Source: a phage
Direction: 5' to 3' (one strand)
Length of the DNA stretch: 64,000 bases
Sequence record: PV874203.1
Part shown: positions 39,663-54,893 of the stretch, piece after piece
Numbering within the stretch: the stretch's first letter is position 1
Layout: every line of letters starts with the position of its first letter
Program-made: the position numbers and the translations under genes
Notes under the pieces: generated by a model
The model's input: only the letters and a program-made list of their open reading frames with translations
The model's database searches: none
What the model was told of the DNA's origin: nothing

Positions 39663-39671
39663 TATATTTAT

Positions 39672-41038: not shown

Positions 41039-41489
41039 TTGATTCGAGATCTCTTAGTTGTTCAGCCAATTGTTCGCACTCATTGATGCAGAACTCTTCT
41101 GTTCTTGGAACCCCATTAGGGTTGAACCGTGTCTTATCACACGCATGGGCACAATCAAACCCGATTGTATTTAAACCACCCATCTCTTCAAGAGTGTCTT
41201 GCCATGTTACACCACCGTGAACTCCAACATACCAAACAACCGCTTCCTCTCCGTTATATCCGGTGAAGTTTTTATGCTTTAAGCTGTCTGGTAGCTCTAC
41301 ATATCCACAAAGATGGGAGTCGTTCATGTGAATAATCACAGCACGAAGCCCTGATTTAGTTACCCAACCTTTAACCATGCGTCTCATATAAGCACCTCTT
41401 GTTAGTTTAAGTAAGAGTTGTCCCTTAATTAAAACAACAAAGGCCACCCGATTGGGCAGCCTTTTATCTATTAACTGTTGTATGTCCAA
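41031..41489 (-). CDS. Hypothetical protein
   Basis: 152-aa ORF; true start may be an internal Met. Confidence 0.45.
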   Translation of the reverse strand: MDIQQLIDKRLPNRVAFVVLIKGQLLLKLTRGAYMRRMVKGWVTKSGLRAVIIHMNDSHLCGYVELPDSLKHKNFTGYNGEEAVVWYVGVHGGVTWQDTLEEMGGLNTIGFDCAHACDKTRFNPNGVPRTEEFCINECEQLAEQLRDLESNV

Positions 41490-42198: not shown

Positions 42199-42417
42199 TT
42201 ACTGATAGATGGAGAGGTGGATAAGTTTATTCACATGAGCGAAGTTAGGTAGGATTTGCATCTCATTGTTGAAGATATTAAAACAACGAACCCCACCCTC
42301 TACAGCATAAGCAGATTTCTGAAACAGACTACCTCCCCACACAAATACATCATGTGTTTCAAGAGATCGTAACTGAACAGCCTCGTCAACAACCTTCTTT
42401 TCAATGTTCATACTCAC
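42199..42417 (-). CDS. Small hypothetical protein in the paralog array
   Basis: 72-aa ORF inside the array; family membership weak. Confidence 0.4.
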   Translation of the reverse strand: MSMNIEKKVVDEAVQLRSLETHDVFVWGGSLFQKSAYAVEGGVRCFNIFNNEMQILPNFAHVNKLIHLSIYQ

Positions 42418-46425: not shown

Positions 46426-47242
46426 CTTTCAATTGTAAGGGCACTATGCCCCGCTCTCTATGAGCTTGTTTAAGTCACTATTAACTTAACTATAACCACT
46501 CGTTGTTAAGTAGTTATAGGTAAGCGGGGCGGTCTTATCAGGAGTTAACCTTGCCGCCCCCTTATCCGTGATGTTTCATCTGGTACGCTTTAATTTTCCG
46601 CTATAAATAAAGCCGGATTGCGTAGCGATGATCAATCATCACAATAAGGCTATGCGTCCAACTCAATTTAATTACATTGCTGTAACCGTTGGCAATATCG
46701 TCTACTTTGCTTTCGCTCCCGCCTATCCTTTGTGCCAACTCCTAACCGCTAACCATCGCCCACTACGGGAGGTTATTGCGGAAAGAGATCATTGACCGCC
46801 TAATATTCCGGCGTTTTATATCTTTCGGCGGGTTTACTACATAACCCGACTATGTACTTCCGTCATAAGACGAATCTCAAGCCGTTCACATCGTAAACGT
46901 TCGCATTAAACCTTATTGTTAAATAGCAATTTGCCACTTTTTAACCACTCCCCGCCGCCCTCAATTGGGCGTTAATTCGTCGGACTTGTCTGCCCTGATT
47001 AGTTTCTTTCACTGTAGCACCGTGTTAGCGATGGCCGCCGCTACCCTTAACCGTGGGCGATTAGCTTAAACCTTTGCGTGTACTCAATGAATCCGCTTAT
47101 CAGTGGCGACTTTTCCAGTTAAGGGATTGTAAAACTGTTTACCCTGATGTTTTAGGGAGTTTTACGCCGTTTTATCTGGTATGCTGTCCGATGGTTATTA
47201 TCTTCCAGCATATTTAACCGATATATGGGAATGTTTAAATTG

Positions 47243-47868
47243 TTAAAGAGCGGTAAATCTGTCAGCGTGCTTTCTCACGCTACGCAACTGTTAGCCGTTG
47301 TTACGCTTTTCACTTAAGCGGTGATTTGCTTCAGTGATGCTCATTATGGACCATGATGTTTTTGCTGTCAACCGCTTTTTTAATCTTTTTCGTCGTTCCC
47401 GCTATTGGGAGGATATATCAACCCGCTTTATTGGGTTGAAGATTAAGCGATGAGGCTTAACCCATGATTCATATTGTTAAAGAGCGTTTAGCCTTTTATA
47501 GTGTCTGCTAATCACTGCATCATTAAAGGCTTACTTATTCATTAACGGGGCGCCTAATCCCGAACTACCCGCTGCACTATGTGCCACCTTTCCCGCGATA
47601 CGTTGATTTAGGAACTAGTTAACGTTGTTTTGTTAACTTGTGGTTAGTATGAACTACCTTAACCACGTTTGCAACCCTTTTTTATCATCTTCTTTTATTC
47701 TTTTCCCTTATCTCGCTTGAATCTATGCGAAAGGGCAAGATGATAAGTTTTTAAAGAGCGGGATGCTTTAAGTCATCGCTGACTATGCTCACTATATATC
47801 AGGCTATTTTCGGTGTCAATACTCTTTTTAAGAATATTTTCACTTTCTAGCCTGATTTTTAAAGAGCG
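47243..47868 (+). repeat. Four dispersed copies of TTAAAGAGCG(G) in an ORF-poor 1.7-kb region
   Basis: Copies at 47243, 47477, 47751 and 47859, in two subtypes (ATTGTTAAAGAGCG x2, TTTTTAAAGAGCGGG x2). Confidence 0.5.
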
Positions 47869-48204
47869 GGGCAATTTCTTGCCTTGTATGTTTTTCATCG
47901 TACCCGATGAATTGAAGTATACATTAATCAGTGAGGGATGCAATAGGGTAAAGCAAACTATTTTAAACTTTTTCACTATAGGGAAGATAAAGGAACGGGT
48001 GCGCGTGATACATCATAGAAAACGGCTTGTAAAGCGATATTTAGCGGCCTAAAACGCACTATAGCGAGCTAAAAGGGAGTAAGGTATACAATCACCTTAG
48101 AAACGATAAGAGCCTCACTAGGAGGCTTATAGGAAGGATTTAGAGCATTAGATAGATTATGACCATAGGCATGACTACGGCACAATATAGGAGAAAGATT
48201 AAGC

Positions 48205-48579
48205 CTATGGATTTACACACTGACCATTACCTGATGCCATTTCATTCATGGACTCATCAAAGAGCGTCAACGATGAGCGCATTAAGTGATCAACCGTAAC
48301 TTGTTTACCAGTGGTTTCATTCACTAATTGAATAGTTTTAGCGTATGATTGTACATGCTCGAAATCATTTACATGCAAAATAATAACCTTAGGTGACTTT
48401 TTACCAGTCTCATAATTCTCCACAAGATAGGTGCACTGTAAACCGTCAACCGTAGCAGGGGAAAACGTTGCAGCTTTAACGCTACCCATAGCAGATAGTA
48501 AGACACCCAACAGAAGAATGACCAGAAAGAAGCCTACAAATACTTTCACTACGAATTTAATAATACCCATGATAATCAA
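48205..48579 (-). CDS. Hypothetical membrane protein
   Basis: N-terminal hydrophobic helix (IIKFVVKVFVGFFLVILLLGVLLSAMG). Confidence 0.5.
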   Translation of the reverse strand: MIIMGIIKFVVKVFVGFFLVILLLGVLLSAMGSVKAATFSPATVDGLQCTYLVENYETGKKSPKVIILHVNDFEHVQSYAKTIQLVNETTGKQVTVDHLMRSSLTLFDESMNEMASGNGQCVNP

Positions 48580-48672
48580 CCTTTAGTTAGAGAATGTAAG
48601 AATACAGCATATCAGCGACGAATAACGCCACTGTAACAACGAACAAGCAACGCCAAAAATAATCACAGATCA

Positions 48673-48927
48673 TTAGTTGCACTTACCCTCAAAATATGCT
48701 ACGCTAAGTAGTTCGATCTCTTCCAGAGAAAGGAGAATCTCACGTTGCGCCAGATAACGACCAATTTCAGCGTCATCCATAGCTAGAGCGACAGCAGGAA
48801 ACTCAACCGCATCAGCCTTATCGCCACTAGTAAACAAGATTAGACACATGTCAGAACTGTCAGTGTATGAGAAATCAATATCCCCATAGTTGTGCGTAGA
48901 GATAGTGAAGCTATATTCTTTAGCCAT
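48673..48927 (-). CDS. Hypothetical protein
   Basis: 84-aa acidic ORF. Confidence 0.45.
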   Translation of the reverse strand: MAKEYSFTISTHNYGDIDFSYTDSSDMCLILFTSGDKADAVEFPAVALAMDDAEIGRYLAQREILLSLEEIELLSVAYFEGKCN

Positions 48928-49171
48928 GTATCAATCCCTCACTAAGCAGGTTAGCCAGAGTTAAATCACCGTCAATATAAATTGACTTGAAATCTTCACG
49001 GGTAATTTCAAAATTAGCAAAGGCTAACCAATCCTTAAGAGGTTGAAATTCCATCCTACAAAAAGTAATAACAGGTAACGTTATCTGACCATCAAGCGTG
49101 TTAAACATGATTTCAGAACGACCAACGAAACAGGAAAAACCATTAGCCAGCTTAATTTCTTTGATAGCCAT
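48920..49171 (-). CDS. Hypothetical protein
   Basis: 83-aa ORF. Confidence 0.45.
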   Translation of the reverse strand: MAIKEIKLANGFSCFVGRSEIMFNTLDGQITLPVITFCRMEFQPLKDWLAFANFEITREDFKSIYIDGDLTLANLLSEGLIHG

Positions 49172-49275
49172 AACCTACACTCCCAAAACAATAAGAACAT
49201 AATAAGCAATTGCAGTTGCAATCACCGTGAAAATCAAAGATAGCAAAAATGAACTAGTACTGCAAATTAATCTTC

Positions 49276-49767
49276 TCATTTGTTAGCCTTAATGCAGTTG
49301 GCTAGATTGATGTGAACAGTATAAACAGCGTTATCCGCATTATTGTAAACCGTAGTGGCGATCATCGACTCTTTAACCGGTCCATAACTCACTAGGTTGG
49401 TTACAGCTTTAACGTCTTCGTAACGTTGTACAGTGCCATACGTCACCATATCCGCATCGTTATCGGTACGCTTGAGAACTAGATCATTGTTAGGCTGATT
49501 GTCCAGTGTCTTAGACTGAAAGAGAACGCCTTCACTAGTTACGTTACTAAATTTCACTTTTAACACGATGTTATTGCTGTCACTATCCGCACCATTGCAA
49601 ATCATCCAACCCTTATTGATGGAACTAGCGAAAACATCAGCGGCATTAGTTGCAGGAGCTGGACTAGCGATAGCCTTATCAGAAAGAGATGTGACCAGTG
49701 CACTAACACCGATAGCTGCAACCAGTGCATAGCTTGCCAGATTTACTACCTGCATTGCCTTAGCCAT
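49276..49767 (-). CDS. Hypothetical secreted/periplasmic protein
   Basis: Signal-peptide-like N-terminus; first gene of the minus-strand block. Confidence 0.5.
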   Translation of the reverse strand: MAKAMQVVNLASYALVAAIGVSALVTSLSDKAIASPAPATNAADVFASSINKGWMICNGADSDSNNIVLKVKFSNVTSEGVLFQSKTLDNQPNNDLVLKRTDNDADMVTYGTVQRYEDVKAVTNLVSYGPVKESMIATTVYNNADNAVYTVHINLANCIKANK

Positions 49768-50435
49768 TTTTGTTACTCCTTATATAAATTCAATCAACTG
49801 TTACCAACTATATATTAAAGGAAAAGACCGTCAACCAATTATTTTCTAACTTTCTTGCATCCTACTGAAAACTAAAGGAATTTAATTTACCTAACTTTCT
49901 ACATTCAGGGGATTATCTTACTTCTTATTGTTACTTTATAACACTACGGATGTAACGCTATCGCTACGGGTAGCAGACCAACATACCAGGACACGGAGAG
50001 CACACAACCGCAGAACAGACCACGGGGAAACATAGCCAGATAGTGCGGTAATAATATACCACTTAAATAATTAGTTAACTCAAACATCAAAGACGTTCGC
50101 TACGCTCACAAAGGCACGCTGAAAAAGGAAAGAATAAACATCAATAAAAACAATCATTCTTAAAAGAATTATTAAAAGAAACATAATCATCCACTTAATT
50201 AATACATACATACGACGCTACTTCGTAGCTGTGCATTCCATGCACCCATCATATATTGCACTCATAATCATTACTATTGAAACTATTTACACTCAAACTA
50301 TGGGGAGTGGTGACCATCATTAATGGCTTTATTAGCAGACTAATCAGTTGGCCTGTACAGTGTTAGCCTTTCTCTCACTCTTTAAAGGGGTACTAAATAA
50401 ACGGGTAGGTAATGTAATGAGTAGTATACACGGGG

Positions 50436-50474
50436 AAAGAATAACGGGGAGTAGGCACGGGGAAAAGCTGGAAC
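50436..50474 (+). repeat. Three closely spaced ACGGGGA(A/G) direct repeats in the divergent intergenic region
   Basis: TATACACGGGGAAAGAATAACGGGGAGTAGGCACGGGGAAAAGC; a further CACGGGGAAA copy near 50021. Confidence 0.45.
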
Positions 50475-50617
50475 GTTGATAGGGATGTAAAGGCGTTGCC
50501 AATAACCCTTTTTTATTTGAGGACTCCCCCTTTTTTAACAATTCGCCGCGGAGGGCCTAGCCCCACTCGGTCAAATCAGAATTTTAAACACTTATATATA
50601 AGGTTGAAAGAGAACTT

Positions 50618-50782
50618 ATGTGGAAAATTAAGTTAATCATTAAGCAATTCAAATGTGATCATGAGTACTATCGGATACGCAAAGCTTACGGGGATGAAAG
50701 AGTTCACACCCTTTATAAGTCCACTTGGAGATGTAGTAAATGTGGTAAGCTTAAGCACAGCACATGGATGGATAGGCCTTAA
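50618..50782 (+). CDS. Hypothetical small zinc-ribbon protein (54 aa)
   Basis: Hand-translated ORF with CDHEYYR ... CSKCG; first ORF of the plus-strand block. Confidence 0.3.
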   Translation: MWKIKLIIKQFKCDHEYYRIRKAYGDERVHTLYKSTWRCSKCGKLKHSTWMDRP

Positions 50783-50910
50783 CATGACATAGCCTTTATG
50801 AAGGTGCCTTAACATGAAGACTCCTTTAAACCTCTTCCCTTTATCAGCGCACACGGGTTGTTGGTATGAAGGTGCCTTTACGGGTTGGTCTTATGATGTG
50901 CCCTTTATAC
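50775..50910 (+). repeat. Cluster of short direct repeats (GCCTTAACATGA x2, TATGAAGGTGCCTT x2, related TATGATGTGCCCTTTA)
   Basis: Read directly between two tiny ORFs at the start of the late block. Confidence 0.4.
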
Positions 50911-51064
50911 TTTTATTCAGAGGATAGAATATGAAGTTTTTAAAAGAACTACACTCCTTGATTTATAAGGACATAGTGTACTCAGTATCCCGCAATGCAT
51001 GGTTCTACCAAAAAGGTGGCAACGGTGAATGGGTAGATTGAATCTTATTCAGAGGAGATGAATT

Positions 51065-51319
51065 ATGAATTTAGTATTAGATTTTTTATCAGAGTTGGTG
51101 CCTCGGTTTAGAACGGAGACATATGCTTTCGTAGTCAACAGTGACTCTGAAGAAGGGATGGAAGCTACGTGCTTAGGTCGTCTTGTTGACCTAGATGATG
51201 ATACAGATTTCGATATTACAATTGATGTGAGTAGTTTAGGTTGGCTCTTCTTCAGAGCATTCCTCACTTACAAAGTAGAAACGTATAAAGATTACAGCAA
51301 GGGAGATACAGATGAATAA
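51065..51319 (+). CDS. Hypothetical acidic protein
   Basis: 84-aa ORF. Confidence 0.45.
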   Translation: MNLVLDFLSELVPRFRTETYAFVVNSDSEEGMEATCLGRLVDLDDDTDFDITIDVSSLGWLFFRAFLTYKVETYKDYSKGDTDE

Positions 51320-51881
51320 TTTAATCAAAGCGATGGATCTTAATGAGTATAATTCACAGCTATGTCGCTCTGGTTGTAGCTTACAACATTTAGAAACTAT
51401 GGGAAATGTTTCAGGGTTAGCTGTACAAGATTTATATAGTGGAAGTATTCTTAAACCAAATATTACGGAGAACAAAAACATGTTAGATTTGATTCATACT
51501 ACTCGCCCTGATTCTAAAACTAAAAAACAACCATCTACTCTGGAAGTAGTTGAATACGAATCTACTAAACATGATCACCTCCCTGACTATGCTCGTGCAA
51601 TGATTGAGATGATTGAAGAAGCTGAATATGAAATGCTCCATGATTACATTACCTCCAAAGATGAGTGGCATCGTGATGTTCGAATCGAAGAAGACGGTAC
51701 AGAAACAATTACGTGGATTCACAAGAGTGAGTTAGTAGACGACGCACTGCGAGACTACGAAAAATTTTTGGTCGACGGCTCTATTGTTTTAGAGGGAGAG
51801 AAGGGTGTAGAACTTCCGTGGGAGGGTGAGACGATTGCTTTAGGTAAGATGTTCAACCTGTCCGTTGGTGATTGTAAGTAA
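51312..51881 (+). CDS. Hypothetical protein
   Basis: 189-aa ORF. Confidence 0.5.
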   Translation: MNNLIKAMDLNEYNSQLCRSGCSLQHLETMGNVSGLAVQDLYSGSILKPNITENKNMLDLIHTTRPDSKTKKQPSTLEVVEYESTKHDHLPDYARAMIEMIEEAEYEMLHDYITSKDEWHRDVRIEEDGTETITWIHKSELVDDALRDYEKFLVDGSIVLEGEKGVELPWEGETIALGKMFNLSVGDCK

Positions 51882-51887
51882 TGTTTA

Positions 51888-51909
51888 CCTCCCTTGGGAG
51901 GCTTTTTGT
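51888..51909 (+). terminator. Putative rho-independent terminator / attenuator
   Basis: Hairpin CCTCCC-TT-GGGAGG followed by CTTTTTGTG. Confidence 0.4.
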
Positions 51910-51937
51910 GTTGTTGATAATGTAGAAGGAGTATAAA

Positions 51938-52411
51938 ATGTTTGGAGAAAACGGAGAACTCACGCCTGCACAGGTAGCTGAGATTACAGGAAGATTGCCC
52001 GGAGTAACGGAAGAACTTGAAAGCCGTGGTATGAACCCAAGCAATGGGAAGTTTCAAAAGGGAAATAAATTCGGACGACCCAGAGGTAGTAGAGGTAAAC
52101 TGACACAATTAATGTTGGACCGTGTTGCTGCAAGTCATTTGTCTCCTGATGAAGTGTTAATTCAAATTTACGAAGATCCTAATATTCCACCTGATCTTAG
52201 ATTCAAGGCTGCATCAAAAGTTGCAGATCTGGTATATCCTAAGGCGGCCTCTGTTGAAGTTAAGATTGAGGAAGAGAATGTAATCAACGAAGAATCATTG
52301 AATGCACAAATCAAGGACTTCTTGACTGGAGCACTTGGTATCGACGTTATGCCTCCAGAAGAAGACAACTCTGAGGACGCTGAAAAGGGGGAGGAAGCGG
52401 ACGAGAGTTAA
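51938..52411 (+). CDS. Putative terminase small subunit
   Basis: Immediately upstream of the large terminase; HTH-like LTPAQVAEITG, basic Gly-rich segment, acidic C-terminus. Assignment by position and composition. Confidence 0.4.
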   Translation: MFGENGELTPAQVAEITGRLPGVTEELESRGMNPSNGKFQKGNKFGRPRGSRGKLTQLMLDRVAASHLSPDEVLIQIYEDPNIPPDLRFKAASKVADLVYPKAASVEVKIEEENVINEESLNAQIKDFLTGALGIDVMPPEEDNSEDAEKGEEADES

Positions 52412-52529: not shown

Positions 52530-52736
52530 ATGTCATTAGATAAACAAATTTATGAAGCTCTAACTGGTAACAATCTTAGTGTAGAGGAAAAGAAAGCACT
52601 ATTGAATATGTTGAAAGAGCGTGACCAATGGAGGAAGTATAATAGGATTTTGTCTTTCAAGGCGTATGACTTCCAAAAGAAATTTTATGCAGCAGGATTG
52701 AAGCATCGCTTTAGGTTCTTGTGTGCGGCTAACCGT
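52530..52736 (+). CDS. Terminase large subunit (T7 gp19-like), exon 1, ending inside the Walker A motif
   Basis: GGAGG RBS, ATG; translation ends ...YDFQKKFYAAGLKHRFRFLCAANR then an in-frame TAA. Confidence 0.65.
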
Positions 52737-53558
52737 TAACTGTTATTCACCAAGATAACCAACACGAATCTGTCGCAGTATACAAAAGAGATTATCACCT
52801 AAGGCTTAGCTATGGTGGAGCGGTTTAAAAAGTGTGCTAATTGCTGGAAGGCTGTTACGAAAGTTATGCTAATCAGCAGCGAAGCTTAATGTGGGAAACC
52901 TATTAAGAACGTTCAACGACCAGAGATTATTCTCGTAGGGTAAAGTTACCCGAAACGCACACCCCAGAGTGGGATGATATGGTCTATTCTTTTCGGAAAC
53001 GTAAAGCAGGAGAAATTAAAAATATGTTTTTATATCACATCCGTCGTCCGGGTATGTCTTTAGAAGAGGGCTACATCGGAATCACGACAAACACTACAAA
53101 ACGTTTTGCTCAGCATCACAGAGACACTCGAAATAACAACCGACATAATAGGAACTGGCATCTCTATAACGCTCTTCGTAAATATGATGATATAGAGTTC
53201 GTTATCATAGAAGAAGGGGAAGATGAAGTAATTCGACAGAGAGAGTTTGAATTACGCTCGAAACCTAATATGGGTTGGAATCAAGCAGTAGGAGGTTCTC
53301 ATAATGGTGGCAACACTTGGAAAGGCAAACAACGACCTGAACACTCAGAGCTGATGAAGAAGATAGGTTTCCAGAAAGGTAATACCACTGGATCACATCA
53401 TCCAATCATGGCTGAAGGTCAAATATTTGAGAATAAACGTTTAGCGTCAGAAGCTCTTGGAATAAACCCTAAGACAATCTATAATAGATGCAAGAGAGGT
53501 GTTGATGGTTATAAATTTCTCCGGGATGACACTGTTACGGGTGCATCTGAATAAAGAG
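52737..53558 (+). mobile_element. Putative group I intron in the terminase large subunit gene, carrying a GIY-YIG homing endonuclease ORF
   Basis: About 822-nt insert splitting the P-loop: exon 1 ...AANR (last nt U) and exon 2 VGKSYSEA... give AANRVGKS (AxxxxGKS); insert ends in G. An alternative junction (52731/53550) is also rule-compatible. P1-P9 structure not verified. Confidence 0.55.
52979..53554 (+). CDS. GIY-YIG homing endonuclease (insert-encoded)
   Basis: N-terminal YHIRRPGMSLEEGYIGITTNTTKRFAQH matches the GIY-YIG core; basic C-terminal DNA-binding region. Confidence 0.75.
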   Translation: MVYSFRKRKAGEIKNMFLYHIRRPGMSLEEGYIGITTNTTKRFAQHHRDTRNNNRHNRNWHLYNALRKYDDIEFVIIEEGEDEVIRQREFELRSKPNMGWNQAVGGSHNGGNTWKGKQRPEHSELMKKIGFQKGNTTGSHHPIMAEGQIFENKRLASEALGINPKTIYNRCKRGVDGYKFLRDDTVTGASE

Positions 53559-54893
53559 GTTGGTAAATCTTACAGCGAGGCATACGAGTTTGCTTGTCAT
53601 GTCACAGGTCGCTACCCAACTTGGTGGACAGGATATAAATTTAAAAGACCTATCTTAGCATGGGCAGTTGGTATTACAGGGGATTCCACAAGGAAAGTAT
53701 TGCAAAAGGAATTGTTTGGTACACCTATCGGAAAGGATACAAATTTATTAGGGACAGGTGTCATTCCTCGTGATGCTATCGTCATTGATACGATAGAACG
53801 AGATGGTAACAAACTTCAAATCGTACAAATCAAACATCAAAATGAGAGAGGAGAATTTGACGGTTTAAGTACATTAGAATTCCGTTCAACCCAACAGGGT
53901 GAACACACATTGATGGGTGCAACAGTTGACTACATTTGGTTAGACGAAGAAGATCCATATGAGTCTATGGCTATATTCGCACAGTGCGTCACACGTACAC
54001 TCACAACTAAAGGTCTAGTTACAATTACAGCTACACCAGAGAACGGTTTAACTGAACTGGTAGATAAATTTATGAAAGGTGAAGGGGATGAGAACACAGG
54101 TTCTCTATATTTCCAGAATGCTTCTTGGTGGGATGCTCATGCAGACCTAGGTGGACACATCACTGACCAAGATATAAAAGATATGACTGAGGGTATTCCA
54201 GCGTGGCAATTAGAGATGCGTTCAAAAGGTATGCCATTGTTAGGAAGTGGTTTGATATATGATGTATCGGATGACACAATTAAATGTGAACCATTCGAAA
54301 TTCCTGATACGTGGAAACGTGTCTGTGCAATTGATATTGGTATTGATCACCCAACTGCTGCTGTTTGGACAGCTTACGATGCAAACACGGATACTATCTA
54401 TGTTTACGACTCATATAAAGAAGGTGGCTTTACTCCAGTGTATCATGCTCCAGCTATTAATGGTCGTGGTCAGTGGATTCCTGTCATCCTACCGCATGAT
54501 GCGGACAATACTGAGAAAGGTAGTGGTTCATCTGTTGCTCAATTCTATAAGAATGCAGGAGTTAACGTACAGAGTGAGACCTTCTACAACAAAATTGGAA
54601 TGGATGGTAAAAAGAACTTCTTTGTAGAACCGGGAATCACAGATATCCGAGAAAGAATGATGAGTGGACGCTTTAAAGTCTTTAACACAGCCGCTAACGC
54701 TAAGCTATTCGAAGAGAAAGCTAGATATCACCGTAAGGTTGGTAAGATTATTAAAGAACATGATGACTTAATGGATGCAATGCGTTATTCAGCGTGCTCT
54801 GTTACACATCGTGGTCGCTCTAAGCATGATGTTAGCTACGGAAGCGCTTCTTTGTATGAGGCAAACGTAAGCAGATGGAATCAGAGCTACTAA
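53559..54893 (+). CDS. Terminase large subunit (T7 gp19-like), exon 2: rest of ATPase domain and nuclease domain
   Basis: Begins VGKSYSEAYEF (completing Walker A), Walker B VDYIWLDEED. Track ORF starts at a GTG at 53499 inside the insert. Confidence 0.7.
   Translation, partial: VGKSYSEAYEFACHVTGRYPTWWTGYKFKRPILAWAVGITGDSTRKVLQKELFGTPIGKDTNLLGTGVIPRDAIVIDTIERDGNKLQIVQIKHQNERGEFDGLSTLEFRSTQQGEHTLMGATVDYIWLDEEDPYESMAIFAQCVTRTLTTKGLVTITATPENGLTELVDKFMKGEGDENTGSLYFQNASWWDAHADLGGHITDQDIKDMTEGIPAWQLEMRSKGMPLLGSGLIYDVSDDTIKCEPFEIPDTWKRVCAIDIGIDHPTAAVWTAYDANTDTIYVYDSYKEGGFTPVYHAPAINGRGQWIPVILPHDADNTEKGSGSSVAQFYKNAGVNVQSETFYNKIGMDGKKNFFVEPGITDIRERMMSGRFKVFNTAANAKLFEEKARYHRKVGKIIKEHDDLMDAMRYSACSVTHRGRSKHDVSYGSASLYEANVSRWNQSY

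What the first reader, a model, noticed from the sequence alone, without database searches (positions are those of the whole stretch)
49768..50617. Divergent 850-bp ORF-free control region with ACGGGGA iterons between the early and late blocks
This is the switch between the leftward and rightward gene blocks. It is A-rich and holds three ACGGGGA(A/G) repeats within 40 bp (50436-50474) plus another CACGGGGAAA near 50021. Iteron-like repeats at a divergent junction suggest a replication origin or binding sites for a transcription factor, possibly the phage sigma factor.
Basis: seen in the sequence. Interest (0 to 1): 0.5.

Follow-up and report, generated by a model that had tools for sequence, protein, structure and literature searches.

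The report
Phage genome-end repeat with heptamer array
The "control region" is the place where the two physical ends of a phiEco32-like coliphage genome were joined by assembly, and the ACGGGGA repeats sit inside its known 193-bp terminal repeat, where they most likely mark the DNA for cutting and packaging rather than serving as a replication origin or sigma-factor site.

Summary
The repeats are real and far from chance: ACGGGGA at 50430, 50444 and 50457, and CACGGGGAAA at 50021. The framing needs correcting. The window is a permuted assembly of a Kuravirus (phiEco32-like podophage). Positions 50365-50558 are the single collapsed copy of the family's 193-bp direct terminal repeat (DTR), whose ends were determined experimentally in phiEco32 and YF01. 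So 49768-50617 is the concatemer junction. It runs from the right-end non-coding DNA with the early sigma-70 promoter, through the DTR, to the leader of gene 1.

The heptamers occupy DTR positions 37-99. All seven or eight AYGGGKA copies in the junction lie on one strand. They vary less than the rest of the DTR. They change in concert between lineages (ACGGGGA, CACGGG, ATGGGTAGG) while keeping their positions.

The phage sigma factor gp36 recognises tAATGTAtA, not this motif. No DnaA or IHF sites and no RNA structure were found. T7 has the same layout: CCTAAAG heptamers in and beside its terminal repeat.

My best reading (about 0.5) is that these are recognition sites for the terminase small subunit or another junction-processing protein. 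Binding is untested. This is a new member of a known kind, of modest interest.

The parts
49276..49767 (-). First gene of the leftward (early) block. It is the homologue of the C-terminal part of phiEco32 gp128; function unknown.
   Evidence: ORF list. PHROG 36409 and 21410 hits.
49807..49834 (-). Sigma-70-type early promoter-like site, TTGACG-16-TATAGT, pointing into the early block.
   Evidence: Scan gave 10 of 12 matches. Same position and sequence as the promoter predicted upstream of SU10 CDS125. Conserved in YF01, SU10, phiEco32 and Bas88.
49966..50030 (+). Upstream (right-end) cluster of the repeat: ACGGGTA at 49966, degenerate ACGGAGA at 49993, CACGGGGAAA at 50021. Spacing is 27 and 29 bp.
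   Evidence: In phiEco32 the three copies lie at -348, -319 and -290 from the DTR start. In TH43 and Bas88 the copies at these positions read ATGGGTA.
50050..50300 (.). AT-rich spacer (28-35% GC). It contains two copies of ATA..CCACTTAAWTAAT, at 50051-50071 and 50183-50203.
   Evidence: Composition. Repeat D3. Both copies read CCAGTC(A/T)AAT in Bas88.
50212..50250 (.). Insertion absent from the seven relatives aligned here. It carries two small hairpins: GCTAC-TTC-GTAGC and GTGCAT-TCC-ATGCAC.
   Evidence: Absent from those seven aligned relatives.
50300..50306 (+). ATGGGGA copy 64 bp before the DTR start.
   Evidence: ACTATGGGGAG is conserved in most relatives.
50365..50558 (.). Single collapsed copy of the direct terminal repeat, 194 bp here and 193 bp in relatives. 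The inferred genome ends are at 50364|50365 and 50558|50559. Both boundaries read T|AGCC...CACTC.
   Evidence: Alignment to both ends of phiEco32, SU10 and YF01. Those records have exact 193-bp terminal repeats. Among the records listed, 8 phages (10 rows, counting RefSeq duplicates) begin at the base aligned to 50365. DTRs were determined experimentally in phiEco32 and YF01 (PMC9965538).
50401..50407 (+). ACGGGTA copy at DTR position 37. This is the most widely conserved copy (AAACGGGT in all lineages).
50430..50463 (+). The three ACGGGGA heptamers of the finding, at DTR positions 66, 80 and 93. Spacing is 14 and 13 bp.
   Evidence: Across 8 Kuravirus DTRs, 1 of 21 motif columns varies against 68 of 173 other columns (p=0.0012).
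50501..50536 (.). Most conserved block of the repeat, AATAACCCTTTTTTAWWTGAGGACTCCCCCTTTT, 22 bp before the right boundary.
   Evidence: GAGGACTCCCCCTTTT is kept in relatives whose TerS is only 62-86% identical. It matches the 'conserved region ~130-170' noted in PMC9965538.
50580..50603 (+). Conserved leader element AATTTTAAAC..CTTATATATAAGG upstream of gene 1. SU10's authors suggested a sigma-70 promoter here.
   Evidence: My consensus scan found no promoter here at its threshold.
50618..50782 (+). First rightward gene: a 54-aa protein with Cys/His pairs; function unknown.
51938..52411 (+). Putative small terminase (gp6 homologue), the candidate reader of the repeats.
   Evidence: It lies immediately upstream of the TerL gene. 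It is annotated as putative TerS in YF01. A family profile hits PDB small terminases 7joq (E=0.0025) and 6w7t (E=0.053).

Best explanation
**Shown.** The window is a circularly permuted assembly of a phiEco32-like (Kuravirus) podophage. The interval 49768-50617 is the concatemer junction. It runs from the right-end non-coding DNA, through one copy of the direct terminal repeat (DTR, 50365-50558), to the leader of gene 1. The ACGGGGA heptamers lie inside the DTR, 66-99 bp from its left boundary. They belong to a larger same-strand array of AYGGGKA sites at +37, +66, +80 and +93, with further copies at about -400, -370, -340 and -64. The array is conserved in position across the family. Its core sequence changes in concert between lineages.

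**Inferred.** The array is a cis-acting recognition signal for the machinery that processes concatemers. The most likely reader is the small terminase (gp6 homologue, 51938-52411), bound as a ring whose subunits contact successive direct repeats about 14 bp apart or at twice that. Binding would place the large terminase to nick at the two yT|AGCC boundaries. The repeat would then be duplicated by strand-displacement synthesis, as proposed for T7. Packaging would proceed rightward from the left end, next to the terminase genes. The invariant GAGGACTCCCCCTTTT block would be the family-wide part of the signal. The G-rich heptamers would be the lineage-specific part.
For: Identity of the region:
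- DTR identity and boundaries (PMC9965538).

The repeats behave like constrained sites:
- They are confined to the junction and to one strand.
- Within 8 Kuravirus DTRs averaging 85.5% identity, 1 of 21 heptamer columns varies against 68 of 173 other columns (p=0.0012).
- Copy positions are conserved between lineages.
- ACGGGGA becomes ATGGGTA in parallel at the positionally matching upstream copies (both classes lie within about 290-400 bp of the DTR start) and at DTR position +66 in Suseptimavirus-type genomes.
- The same layout, with other G-rich cores, occurs in contigs whose TerS is 62-86% identical.

Fit to a terminase signal:
- Both DTR boundaries share T|AGCC..CACTC. A shared core at both cut sites was also proposed for the DTR phage tf (PMC3517423).
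- The gp6 family profile matches solved small terminases, and the gene sits directly upstream of TerL.
- T7 has three same-strand CCTAAAG copies inside its 160-bp DTR and 10-11 more beside it, spaced at 13 bp and its multiples. In T7 the small terminase recognises PacB in the concatemer (PMC9860248).
- The DTR has no single-strand structure (z=+2.64), which favours protein recognition of duplex DNA.
Against: - No binding or packaging data exist for this family.
- Covariation with TerS is weak. Kuravirus and Suseptimavirus TerS are 90-92% identical although their cores differ.
- One residue does track core type: N36 with CACGGGG-type cores, T or S36 with GGGT-type. This may reflect a single evolutionary event.
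- The N-terminal helix that looks like a helix-turn-helix is absent from distant TerS homologues that keep similar repeats.
- The AlphaFold monomer gave no significant structural match.
- The function of T7's CCTAAAG repeats is itself not established in anything I could read.
Confidence: 0.5

Rival explanations
1. Replication origin. The direct repeats would be iterons for a phage or host initiator, and the adjacent AT-rich 50050-50300 stretch would be the unwinding element.
For: - Same-orientation repeats lie next to a 250-bp stretch of 28-35% GC.
- The cumulative GC-skew minimum falls at about 50 kb.
- The distant relative GAP52 has three consensus DnaA boxes in its left-end non-coding DNA.
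Against: - The skew minimum coincides with the switch of coding strand, so it carries no independent information.
- There is no cluster of DnaA boxes and no IHF site in the junction.
- The units are 7-10 bp at 13-14 and 29 bp spacing, not the 17-22 bp helically phased units typical of iterons (that typical form is from my own knowledge).
- The part of the Bas91 annotation I read (1-50 kb) lists polymerase, primase/helicase, exonuclease and ligase but no initiator. That is a T7-like set.
- The repeats are part of the sequence duplicated at both genome ends.
Confidence: 0.15
2. Transcriptional control. The repeats would bind a regulator of the divergent early promoters. Alternatively, a gp36-type promoter inside the DTR would drive transcription across them, for example to couple transcription to junction processing.
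For: - A sigma-70 promoter-like site lies at 49834..49807.
- TAATGTAAT at 50410 is one mismatch from the gp36 element, and Bas92 and Bas94 have AATGTATA at the same place.
- T7 has an RNA-polymerase pause/termination site, the concatemer junction (CJ) site (bioRxiv 10.64898/2026.02.12.705533).
Against: - The gp36 consensus is tAATGTAtA and its six mapped promoters lie elsewhere (PMC8948821).
- One-mismatch matches are not enriched in the window: 52 found against 44 expected.
- phiEco32, SU10 and YF01 carry TAATGAATA at that position, and its columns vary among close relatives.
- The repeats lie about 600 bp from the early promoter and about 160 bp from the gene 1 ATG.
- The motif occurs at no other promoter in 64 kb.
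- No terminator or RNA structure was found.
Confidence: 0.1
3. Signals for DNA entry or end protection. A phage or host protein would bind the repeats at the leading end, either to pause genome internalisation or to shield the ends from exonucleases.
For: - The array lies within 100 bp of both physical ends.
- The early promoters point inward from the right end, which suggests that end enters the cell first (the step to entry order is my inference).
Against: There is no direct evidence. No candidate protein has been identified. The upstream cluster lies 340-400 bp from the repeat, which end protection does not obviously explain.
Confidence: 0.08
4. No function. The repeats would be slippage or duplication remnants that persist because the terminal repeat is conserved for other reasons.
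For: A 27-bp duplication-like unit is detectable at 50415-50438 and 50442-50465, 79% identical.
Against: - Heptamer columns are much less variable than the neighbouring DTR columns.
- Copies change in parallel at separate sites between lineages.
- The layout persists in distant relatives with different cores.
Confidence: 0.05

Closest known systems
193-bp direct terminal repeat of phiEco32, SU10, Paul and YF01 (Kuravirus, Gordonclarkvirinae)
   Same: Homologous sequence at 87-92% identity, with the same boundaries and the same gene neighbours. The conserved block at repeat positions ~130-170 has already been noted (PMC9965538).
   Different: - Here the two copies are collapsed into one by assembly, and the repeat is 194 bp.
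- The heptamer array, its parallel changes between lineages and the shared boundary motif are not described in the papers I could read.
T7 concatemer junction: 160-bp terminal repeat with CCTAAAG short repeats, PacB/PacC signals, and the RNA-polymerase pause site CJ
   Same: - Three same-strand heptamers lie inside the repeat, with more copies in the flanks.
- Spacings are about 13 bp and its multiples.
- Similar sequences occur at both repeat boundaries.
- The set of replication genes is T7-like.
- In T7 the small terminase recognises PacB (PMC9860248).
   Different: - There is no sequence similarity between the motifs.
- T7's extra copies lie mainly to the right of the left repeat; here they lie to the left of the repeat.
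- This phage uses host RNA polymerase with its own sigma factor.
- Whether T7's heptamers are part of PacB was not checked here.
Lambda cosB (R3, R2 and R1 sites bound by gpNu1) and the phage P1 pac site (hexamer clusters)
   Same: Several short sub-sites lie next to the terminase cut site, on the side that carries the terminase genes (from my own knowledge; PMC7672466 cites repetitive cos sub-sites for gpNu1).
   Different: Those are cohesive-end and headful systems with different site lengths and orientations, plus an IHF site. No IHF consensus was found here.
PaP3 and NV1 small terminases (PDB 6w7t, 7joq), and the DTR phage tf of the LUZ24 group
   Same: The gp6 family profile matches their oligomerisation core. 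The LUZ24-group phage tf has a 186-bp DTR, and a shared core sequence was proposed for its two cut sites (PMC3517423).
   Different: The match is marginal (E=0.0025 and 0.053) and the structure comparison was not significant. No heptamer arrays are reported for those phages in the papers I read.

Membership tests
Kuravirus direct terminal repeat (DTR) | Sequence homology to a DTR whose ends were determined experimentally | tested here: met
   Positions 50365-50558 align end to end with the exact 193-bp repeats of phiEco32, SU10 and YF01. Of 83 phage records with a match, 66 cover at least 80% of the query.
Kuravirus direct terminal repeat (DTR) | Boundaries coincide with the physical ends of related genomes | tested here: met
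   Among the records listed, 8 phages start at the base aligned to 50365: IMEP8, LAMP, Paul, YF01, SU10, WFI101126, phiEco32 and CHD5UKE1. The right ends of phiEco32, SU10 and YF01 align to 50558.
Kuravirus direct terminal repeat (DTR) | Two copies at the termini of this phage's own virion DNA | not testable with these tools
   The window holds only one copy. Testing this needs reads or virion DNA.
Terminase recognition site (pac/cosB-like) | Lies next to the terminase cut sites and the terminase genes | tested here: met
   The heptamers lie 37-99 bp from the inferred left cut. The TerS and TerL genes begin 1.5 kb downstream.
Terminase recognition site (pac/cosB-like) | Repeated sub-sites under selective constraint | tested here: met
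   Fisher p=0.0012 for the three ACGGGGA copies and 3e-5 when the ACGGGTA copy is included. Positions are conserved and cores change in parallel between lineages.
Terminase recognition site (pac/cosB-like) | Site sequence covaries with the small terminase | tested here: inconclusive
   TerS residue 36 tracks core type across about 12 lineages, but this may be a single event. Overall TerS identity is 90-92% between the ACGGGGA and ATGGGTA classes.
Terminase recognition site (pac/cosB-like) | Specific binding by TerS and a requirement for packaging | not testable with these tools
   This needs gel-shift or footprinting assays and packaging assays.
Iteron-type replication origin | Long (about 17-22 bp) direct repeats in helical phase | tested here: not met
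   The cores are 7-10 bp with spacings of 14, 13 and 29 bp.
Iteron-type replication origin | Adjacent AT-rich unwinding region | tested here: met
   Positions 50050-50300 are 28-35% GC.
Iteron-type replication origin | Host factor sites (DnaA boxes, IHF) or a cognate initiator gene | tested here: not met
   There is one 1-mismatch DnaA box, at the gene 1 start, and no IHF consensus. No initiator is annotated in the first 50 kb of Bas91, the stretch that carries its replication genes; the remaining 26 kb was not read.
phiEco32 gp36 (phage sigma) promoter | Single element tAATGTAtA with the transcription start 6-8 bp downstream | tested here: not met
   ACGGGGA is unrelated to this element. The nearest match, TAATGTAAT at 50410, has one mismatch and is not conserved. 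Such matches are not enriched (PMC8948821).
T7-type short repeats around the terminal repeat | The same heptamer repeated on one strand inside the repeat and in its flanks | tested here: met
   T7 has CCTAAAG at 17, 41 and 60 inside the repeat, at 175-332 on the left flank, and at 39671 and 39700 on the right flank, all on the + strand. The window has AYGGGKA at 49966-50457, all on the + strand.
T7-type short repeats around the terminal repeat | Sequence homology to the T7 junction | tested here: not met
   The motifs are different and no similarity is visible. The resemblance is in layout only.

The most novel reading that the evidence does not exclude
Same-strand heptamers phased at about 13-14 bp and its multiples would form a general code read by ring-shaped small terminases of short-terminal-repeat podophages. 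The examples are AYGGGKA here and CCTAAAG in T7. Successive subunits would contact successive repeats. Lineage-specific cores would set packaging specificity between co-infecting relatives: ACGGGGA with TerS N36, and GGGTAGG-type cores with T36.
Probability: 0.25. Interest if true: 0.55.

Novelty: new member of a known kind. Interest (0 to 1): 0.3.

Why it matters
How small terminases pick out viral DNA is still debated; wrapping, threading and interdigitation models are all current (PMC7672466, PMC11331095). For phages with short direct terminal repeats the recognition sites are poorly defined.

This family offers a compact natural experiment. The scaffold is fixed: the boundaries, an AAACGGGT copy and the GAGGACTCCCCCTTTT block. 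Between them sit heptamer cores that differ by lineage. That makes it easy to design gel-shift, footprinting or packaging-specificity tests, or packaging cassettes for these therapeutic coliphages.

There is also a practical point. The result flags that this assembly is permuted and that its ends were joined. The genome should be re-oriented to start at 50365.

Tried and rejected
- **Known RNA families.** Rfam found nothing across 48000-52000.
- **Single-strand or RNA structure.** The DTR folds worse than shuffled sequence (z=+2.64). The 525-bp right-end spacer gave z=0.64 and -0.20 on the two strands. The long-range pairing GGGGAGT/ACTCCCC (pair I13) is lost in Suseptimavirus, so I rejected it.
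- **Terminator scan.** No sites were found.
- **Generic triple-ACGGGGA search of IMG/VR.** It returned mostly unrelated tandem repeats and was uninformative.
- **GC skew as origin evidence.** It is confounded by gene orientation.
- **TerS fold.** The AlphaFold monomer (pLDDT 71) gave no significant PDB match. Only the sequence profile hit was usable.
- **G-quadruplex.** Loops of 9-10 nt or more, and only three GGGG runs, make this unlikely. I judged this from the sequence and did not model it.
- **Literature.** The two primary phiEco32 papers (PMC2587145, PMC3275717) are not held. Searches for T7 heptamer literature found nothing useful. A paper on Kuravirus and a prophage small RNA was irrelevant.

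Full report
**1. Observation.**
ACGGGGA occurs five times in the 64-kb window. All copies are on the + strand and all fall within 50022-50694. Three start at 50430, 50444 and 50457.

The 10-mer CACGGGGAAA is exact at 50021, 50429 and 50456. CACGGGGA is found nowhere else on either strand. Three same-strand copies within 40 bp would be expected about 2e-6 times per window.

The 850 bp between the leftward start codon (49767) and the rightward ATG (50618) has no ORF above 65 aa. It is richer in A than the window as a whole, 34.9% against 29.0%. Relatives differ there by single-base indels.

**2. What the region is.**
The interval matches 89 Escherichia and Shigella phage records of the phiEco32 group, Kuravirus, Gordonclarkvirinae. 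No record is closer than about 92% over 12.5 kb.

Aligned with both ends of phiEco32, SU10 and YF01, window 50365-50558 corresponds end to end to their terminal repeats. Those repeats are exact 193-bp duplications in the records. Among the records listed, eight phages begin at the base aligned to 50365.

The DTR was determined experimentally in phiEco32 (restriction mapping, primer walking) and in YF01 (full-length nanopore reads). In Paul it was predicted with PhageTerm (PMC9965538).

The window contains only one copy. It is therefore a permuted assembly in which the two ends are joined. The "divergent control region" is the concatemer junction. From left to right it consists of:
- the right-end non-coding DNA (49768-50364);
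- the DTR (50365-50558);
- the 59-bp leader of gene 1.

**3. Anatomy of the junction.**
- **Early promoter.** A sigma-70-type site, TTGACG-16-TATAGT, lies at 49834..49807 on the minus strand. It matches the promoter predicted upstream of SU10 CDS125.
- **The heptamer array.** With the core relaxed to AYGGGKA there are seven + strand copies, at 49966, 50022, 50300, 50401, 50430, 50444 and 50457, and a degenerate ACGGAGA at 49993. There are none on the minus strand, against 0.14 expected. The motif was defined after seeing the data.
- **Copy positions.** Relative to the DTR start, phiEco32 has copies at -348, -319, -290, +37, +66, +80 and +93. The spacings are 29, 29, 29, 14 and 13 bp.
- **Most conserved block.** AATAACCCTTTTTTAWWTGAGGACTCCCCCTTTT lies at 50501-50536, which is DTR positions 137-172. 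This reproduces the published remark about positions ~130-170 (PMC9965538).
- **Boundaries.** Both read T|AGCC followed by CACTC: TGTT|AGCCTTTCTCTCACTC on the left and GCCT|AGCCCCACTCGG on the right. This suggests a shared cut-site element. A shared core at both cut sites was also proposed for the DTR phage tf (PMC3517423).
- **Second repeated element.** CCACTTAAWTAAT occurs at 50059 and 50191, inside an AT-rich spacer of 28-35% GC.

**4. Evidence that the heptamers are functional sites.**
*Constraint.* Among eight Kuravirus DTRs with a mean pairwise identity of 85.5%, 1 of 21 heptamer columns varies against 68 of 173 other columns (Fisher p=0.0012). Including the ACGGGTA copy gives p=3e-5.

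*Parallel change at conserved positions.* The array keeps its layout while the core sequence shifts:
- The LAMP, Bas92 and Bas94 group has CACGGG(G)A at the same three DTR positions.
- Suseptimavirus-type genomes (ECBP2, PAS59, 101114UKE3, Bas88, TH43) have ATGGGTA(G/A) at +66, +94 and +109.
- In Bas88 and TH43 the upstream cluster also reads ATGGGTA, while the +37 copy stays ACGGGTAGG in most genomes.

The same two substitutions therefore appear at separate, positionally matching sites.

*Persistence in distant relatives.* In metagenomic relatives whose TerS is only 62-86% identical, with contigs of about 40-100 kb, the scaffold is kept. It comprises:
- a GCGCCTTTC start-like sequence;
- AAACGGGT about 35 bp further in;
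- several G-rich repeats;
- the GAGGACTCCCCCTTTT block;
- about 20 bp further on, a CT|AG-like site in most of these contigs;
- the CTTATATATAAGG leader.

The repeat cores differ between these relatives: ATGGGTAGG, ACGGGTG, ATAGGGTG or GGGGGTAGGGG.

*No structure.* The DTR has less single-strand structure than shuffled sequence (z=+2.64). The spacer shows no RNA-structure signal, and Rfam finds nothing. Recognition of duplex DNA by a protein is the natural reading.

**5. Which protein, and which process.**
*Phage sigma factor: excluded.* Its promoters have the single element tAATGTAtA and lie upstream of genes 6, 13, 26, 40, 58 and 68 (PMC8948821; PMC4281155). TAATGTAAT at 50410 is a one-mismatch match. 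Such matches are not enriched (52 found, 44 expected), and phiEco32 itself has TAATGAATA at that position.

*Origin: no positive support.*
- The GC-skew minimum at about 50 kb coincides with the switch of coding strand.
- There is no DnaA-box cluster and no IHF consensus in the junction.
- The repeats are short and not helically phased.
- The first 50 kb of the related Bas91 annotation shows a T7-like set of replication genes with no initiator.

*Terminase: the best candidate.*
- gp6 (51938-52411) lies directly upstream of the TerL gene.
- It is annotated as putative small terminase in YF01.
- A profile of 64 homologues matches the solved small terminases 7joq (E=0.0025) and 6w7t, which is PaP3 (E=0.053).
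- The AlphaFold monomer was only moderate (pLDDT 71) and gave no significant structural match.

*Covariation: suggestive but weak.* Residue 36 is N in the three CACGGGG-type lineages (Kuravirus proper, the LAMP group, KBNP1711). It is T or S in all GGGT-type lineages. This may be a single historical event. The TerS proteins of the two main classes are 90-92% identical. The HTH-like N-terminal helix is missing in distant homologues. The neighbouring gp1, gp4 and gp5 homologues diverge much more, so they are not excluded as readers.

**6. Comparison with known systems.**
T7 (NC_001604) has a 160-bp DTR. CCTAAAG lies at positions 17, 41 and 60 inside it. Eight or nine more copies lie at 175-332 just inside the left end, and two lie before the right repeat. 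All are on one strand, spaced at 13 bp and its multiples. Similar sequences (TCT..ACAGT) occur at both T7 boundaries.

In T7 the small terminase recognises PacB and the large subunit cuts at PacC (PMC9860248). Lambda cosB and P1 pac are further examples of multi-site terminase signals, cited here from my own knowledge.

The present array therefore works, by inference, like a T7-type junction signal. It is not homologous to T7's in sequence.

The spacing of about 14 bp, or twice that, fits successive subunits of a TerS ring contacting wrapped DNA. This is an inference from general ring dimensions and was not tested.

**7. Verdict.**
- The region is the already-known Kuravirus terminal repeat and genome-end junction. 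I put this at about 0.95.
- The ACGGGGA array is a conserved feature that changes in concert between lineages and is probably protein-bound.
- Its most likely role is terminase or junction-processing recognition (about 0.5).
- The rivals are an origin (0.15), transcriptional control (0.1), entry or end protection (0.08), and no function (0.05).
- Novelty: a new member of a known kind. Interest: modest.

Noticed in passing
window 52530-54893: The large-terminase gene is split by a group I intron. Exon 1 is 52530-52736 (aa 1-69) and exon 2 is 53559-54890 (aa 70-513). The 822-bp insert matches Rfam RF00028 at 52734-53006 (74.6 bits, E=7.5e-19). It carries a GIY-YIG-like homing endonuclease ORF at 52979-53554. 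LAMP, ECBP2 and PAS59 have an uninterrupted 1542-nt gene, and phiEco32 is annotated the same way.
   Followed up: yes
L136 (Cronobacter phage GAP52) 462-633: The 1.7-kb unannotated left end of this distant relative holds three copies of ACTTATCCACAGG, which contains the E. coli DnaA-box consensus TTATCCACA, plus related CTTATC repeats. The junction regions of the wider family may therefore recruit different factors.
   Followed up: no
window 50212-50250: An insertion of about 39 bp, absent from the seven aligned relatives, forms two adjacent perfect hairpins: GCTAC-TTC-GTAGC and GTGCAT-TCC-ATGCAC. SU10 has a different small hairpin, GTACTTCGTAC, about 100 bp upstream.
   Followed up: partly
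window 50051-50071 and 50183-50203: A second repeated element, CCACTTAAWTAAT, occurs twice in the AT-rich spacer. Both copies read CCAGTC(A/T)AAT in Bas88. This is a second case of parallel change and may mark another binding site.
   Followed up: partly
window 49778-49786 and 50595-50603; also L159-L170: The two divergent first genes are each preceded by TATATAAGG (the arms are perfectly complementary to each other). The palindrome CTTATATATAAGG, preceded by TTTGAAATTxAAAC, is conserved upstream of gene 1 even in relatives with 62% TerS identity. SU10's authors suggested a sigma-70 promoter there, but my scan found none.
   Followed up: partly
window 46739-47772: This 1034-bp ORF-free gap in the early block is larger than the junction itself. 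It corresponds to the SU10 spacer between CDS120 and CDS121, which holds three predicted sigma-70 early promoters.
   Followed up: no
window 41301-41335 and 42216-42235: Two pairs of near-consensus DnaA boxes (one mismatch each) lie about 0.9 kb apart inside the leftward block. One-mismatch DnaA boxes are mildly over-represented in the window, 26 found against 18 expected.
   Followed up: no
L160 9477-10317: A 100-kb metagenomic relative has its portal gene interrupted by a GIY-YIG ORF. Homing elements appear to target the packaging genes repeatedly in this family.
   Followed up: no
L133 / L140 (phage PAS59) 1-275: The 275-bp repeat_region annotated at the end of the PAS59 record does not coincide with the DTR as placed by homology, which starts at about locus position 226. 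The annotated repeat may be an assembly overlap rather than the true terminal repeat.
   Followed up: no
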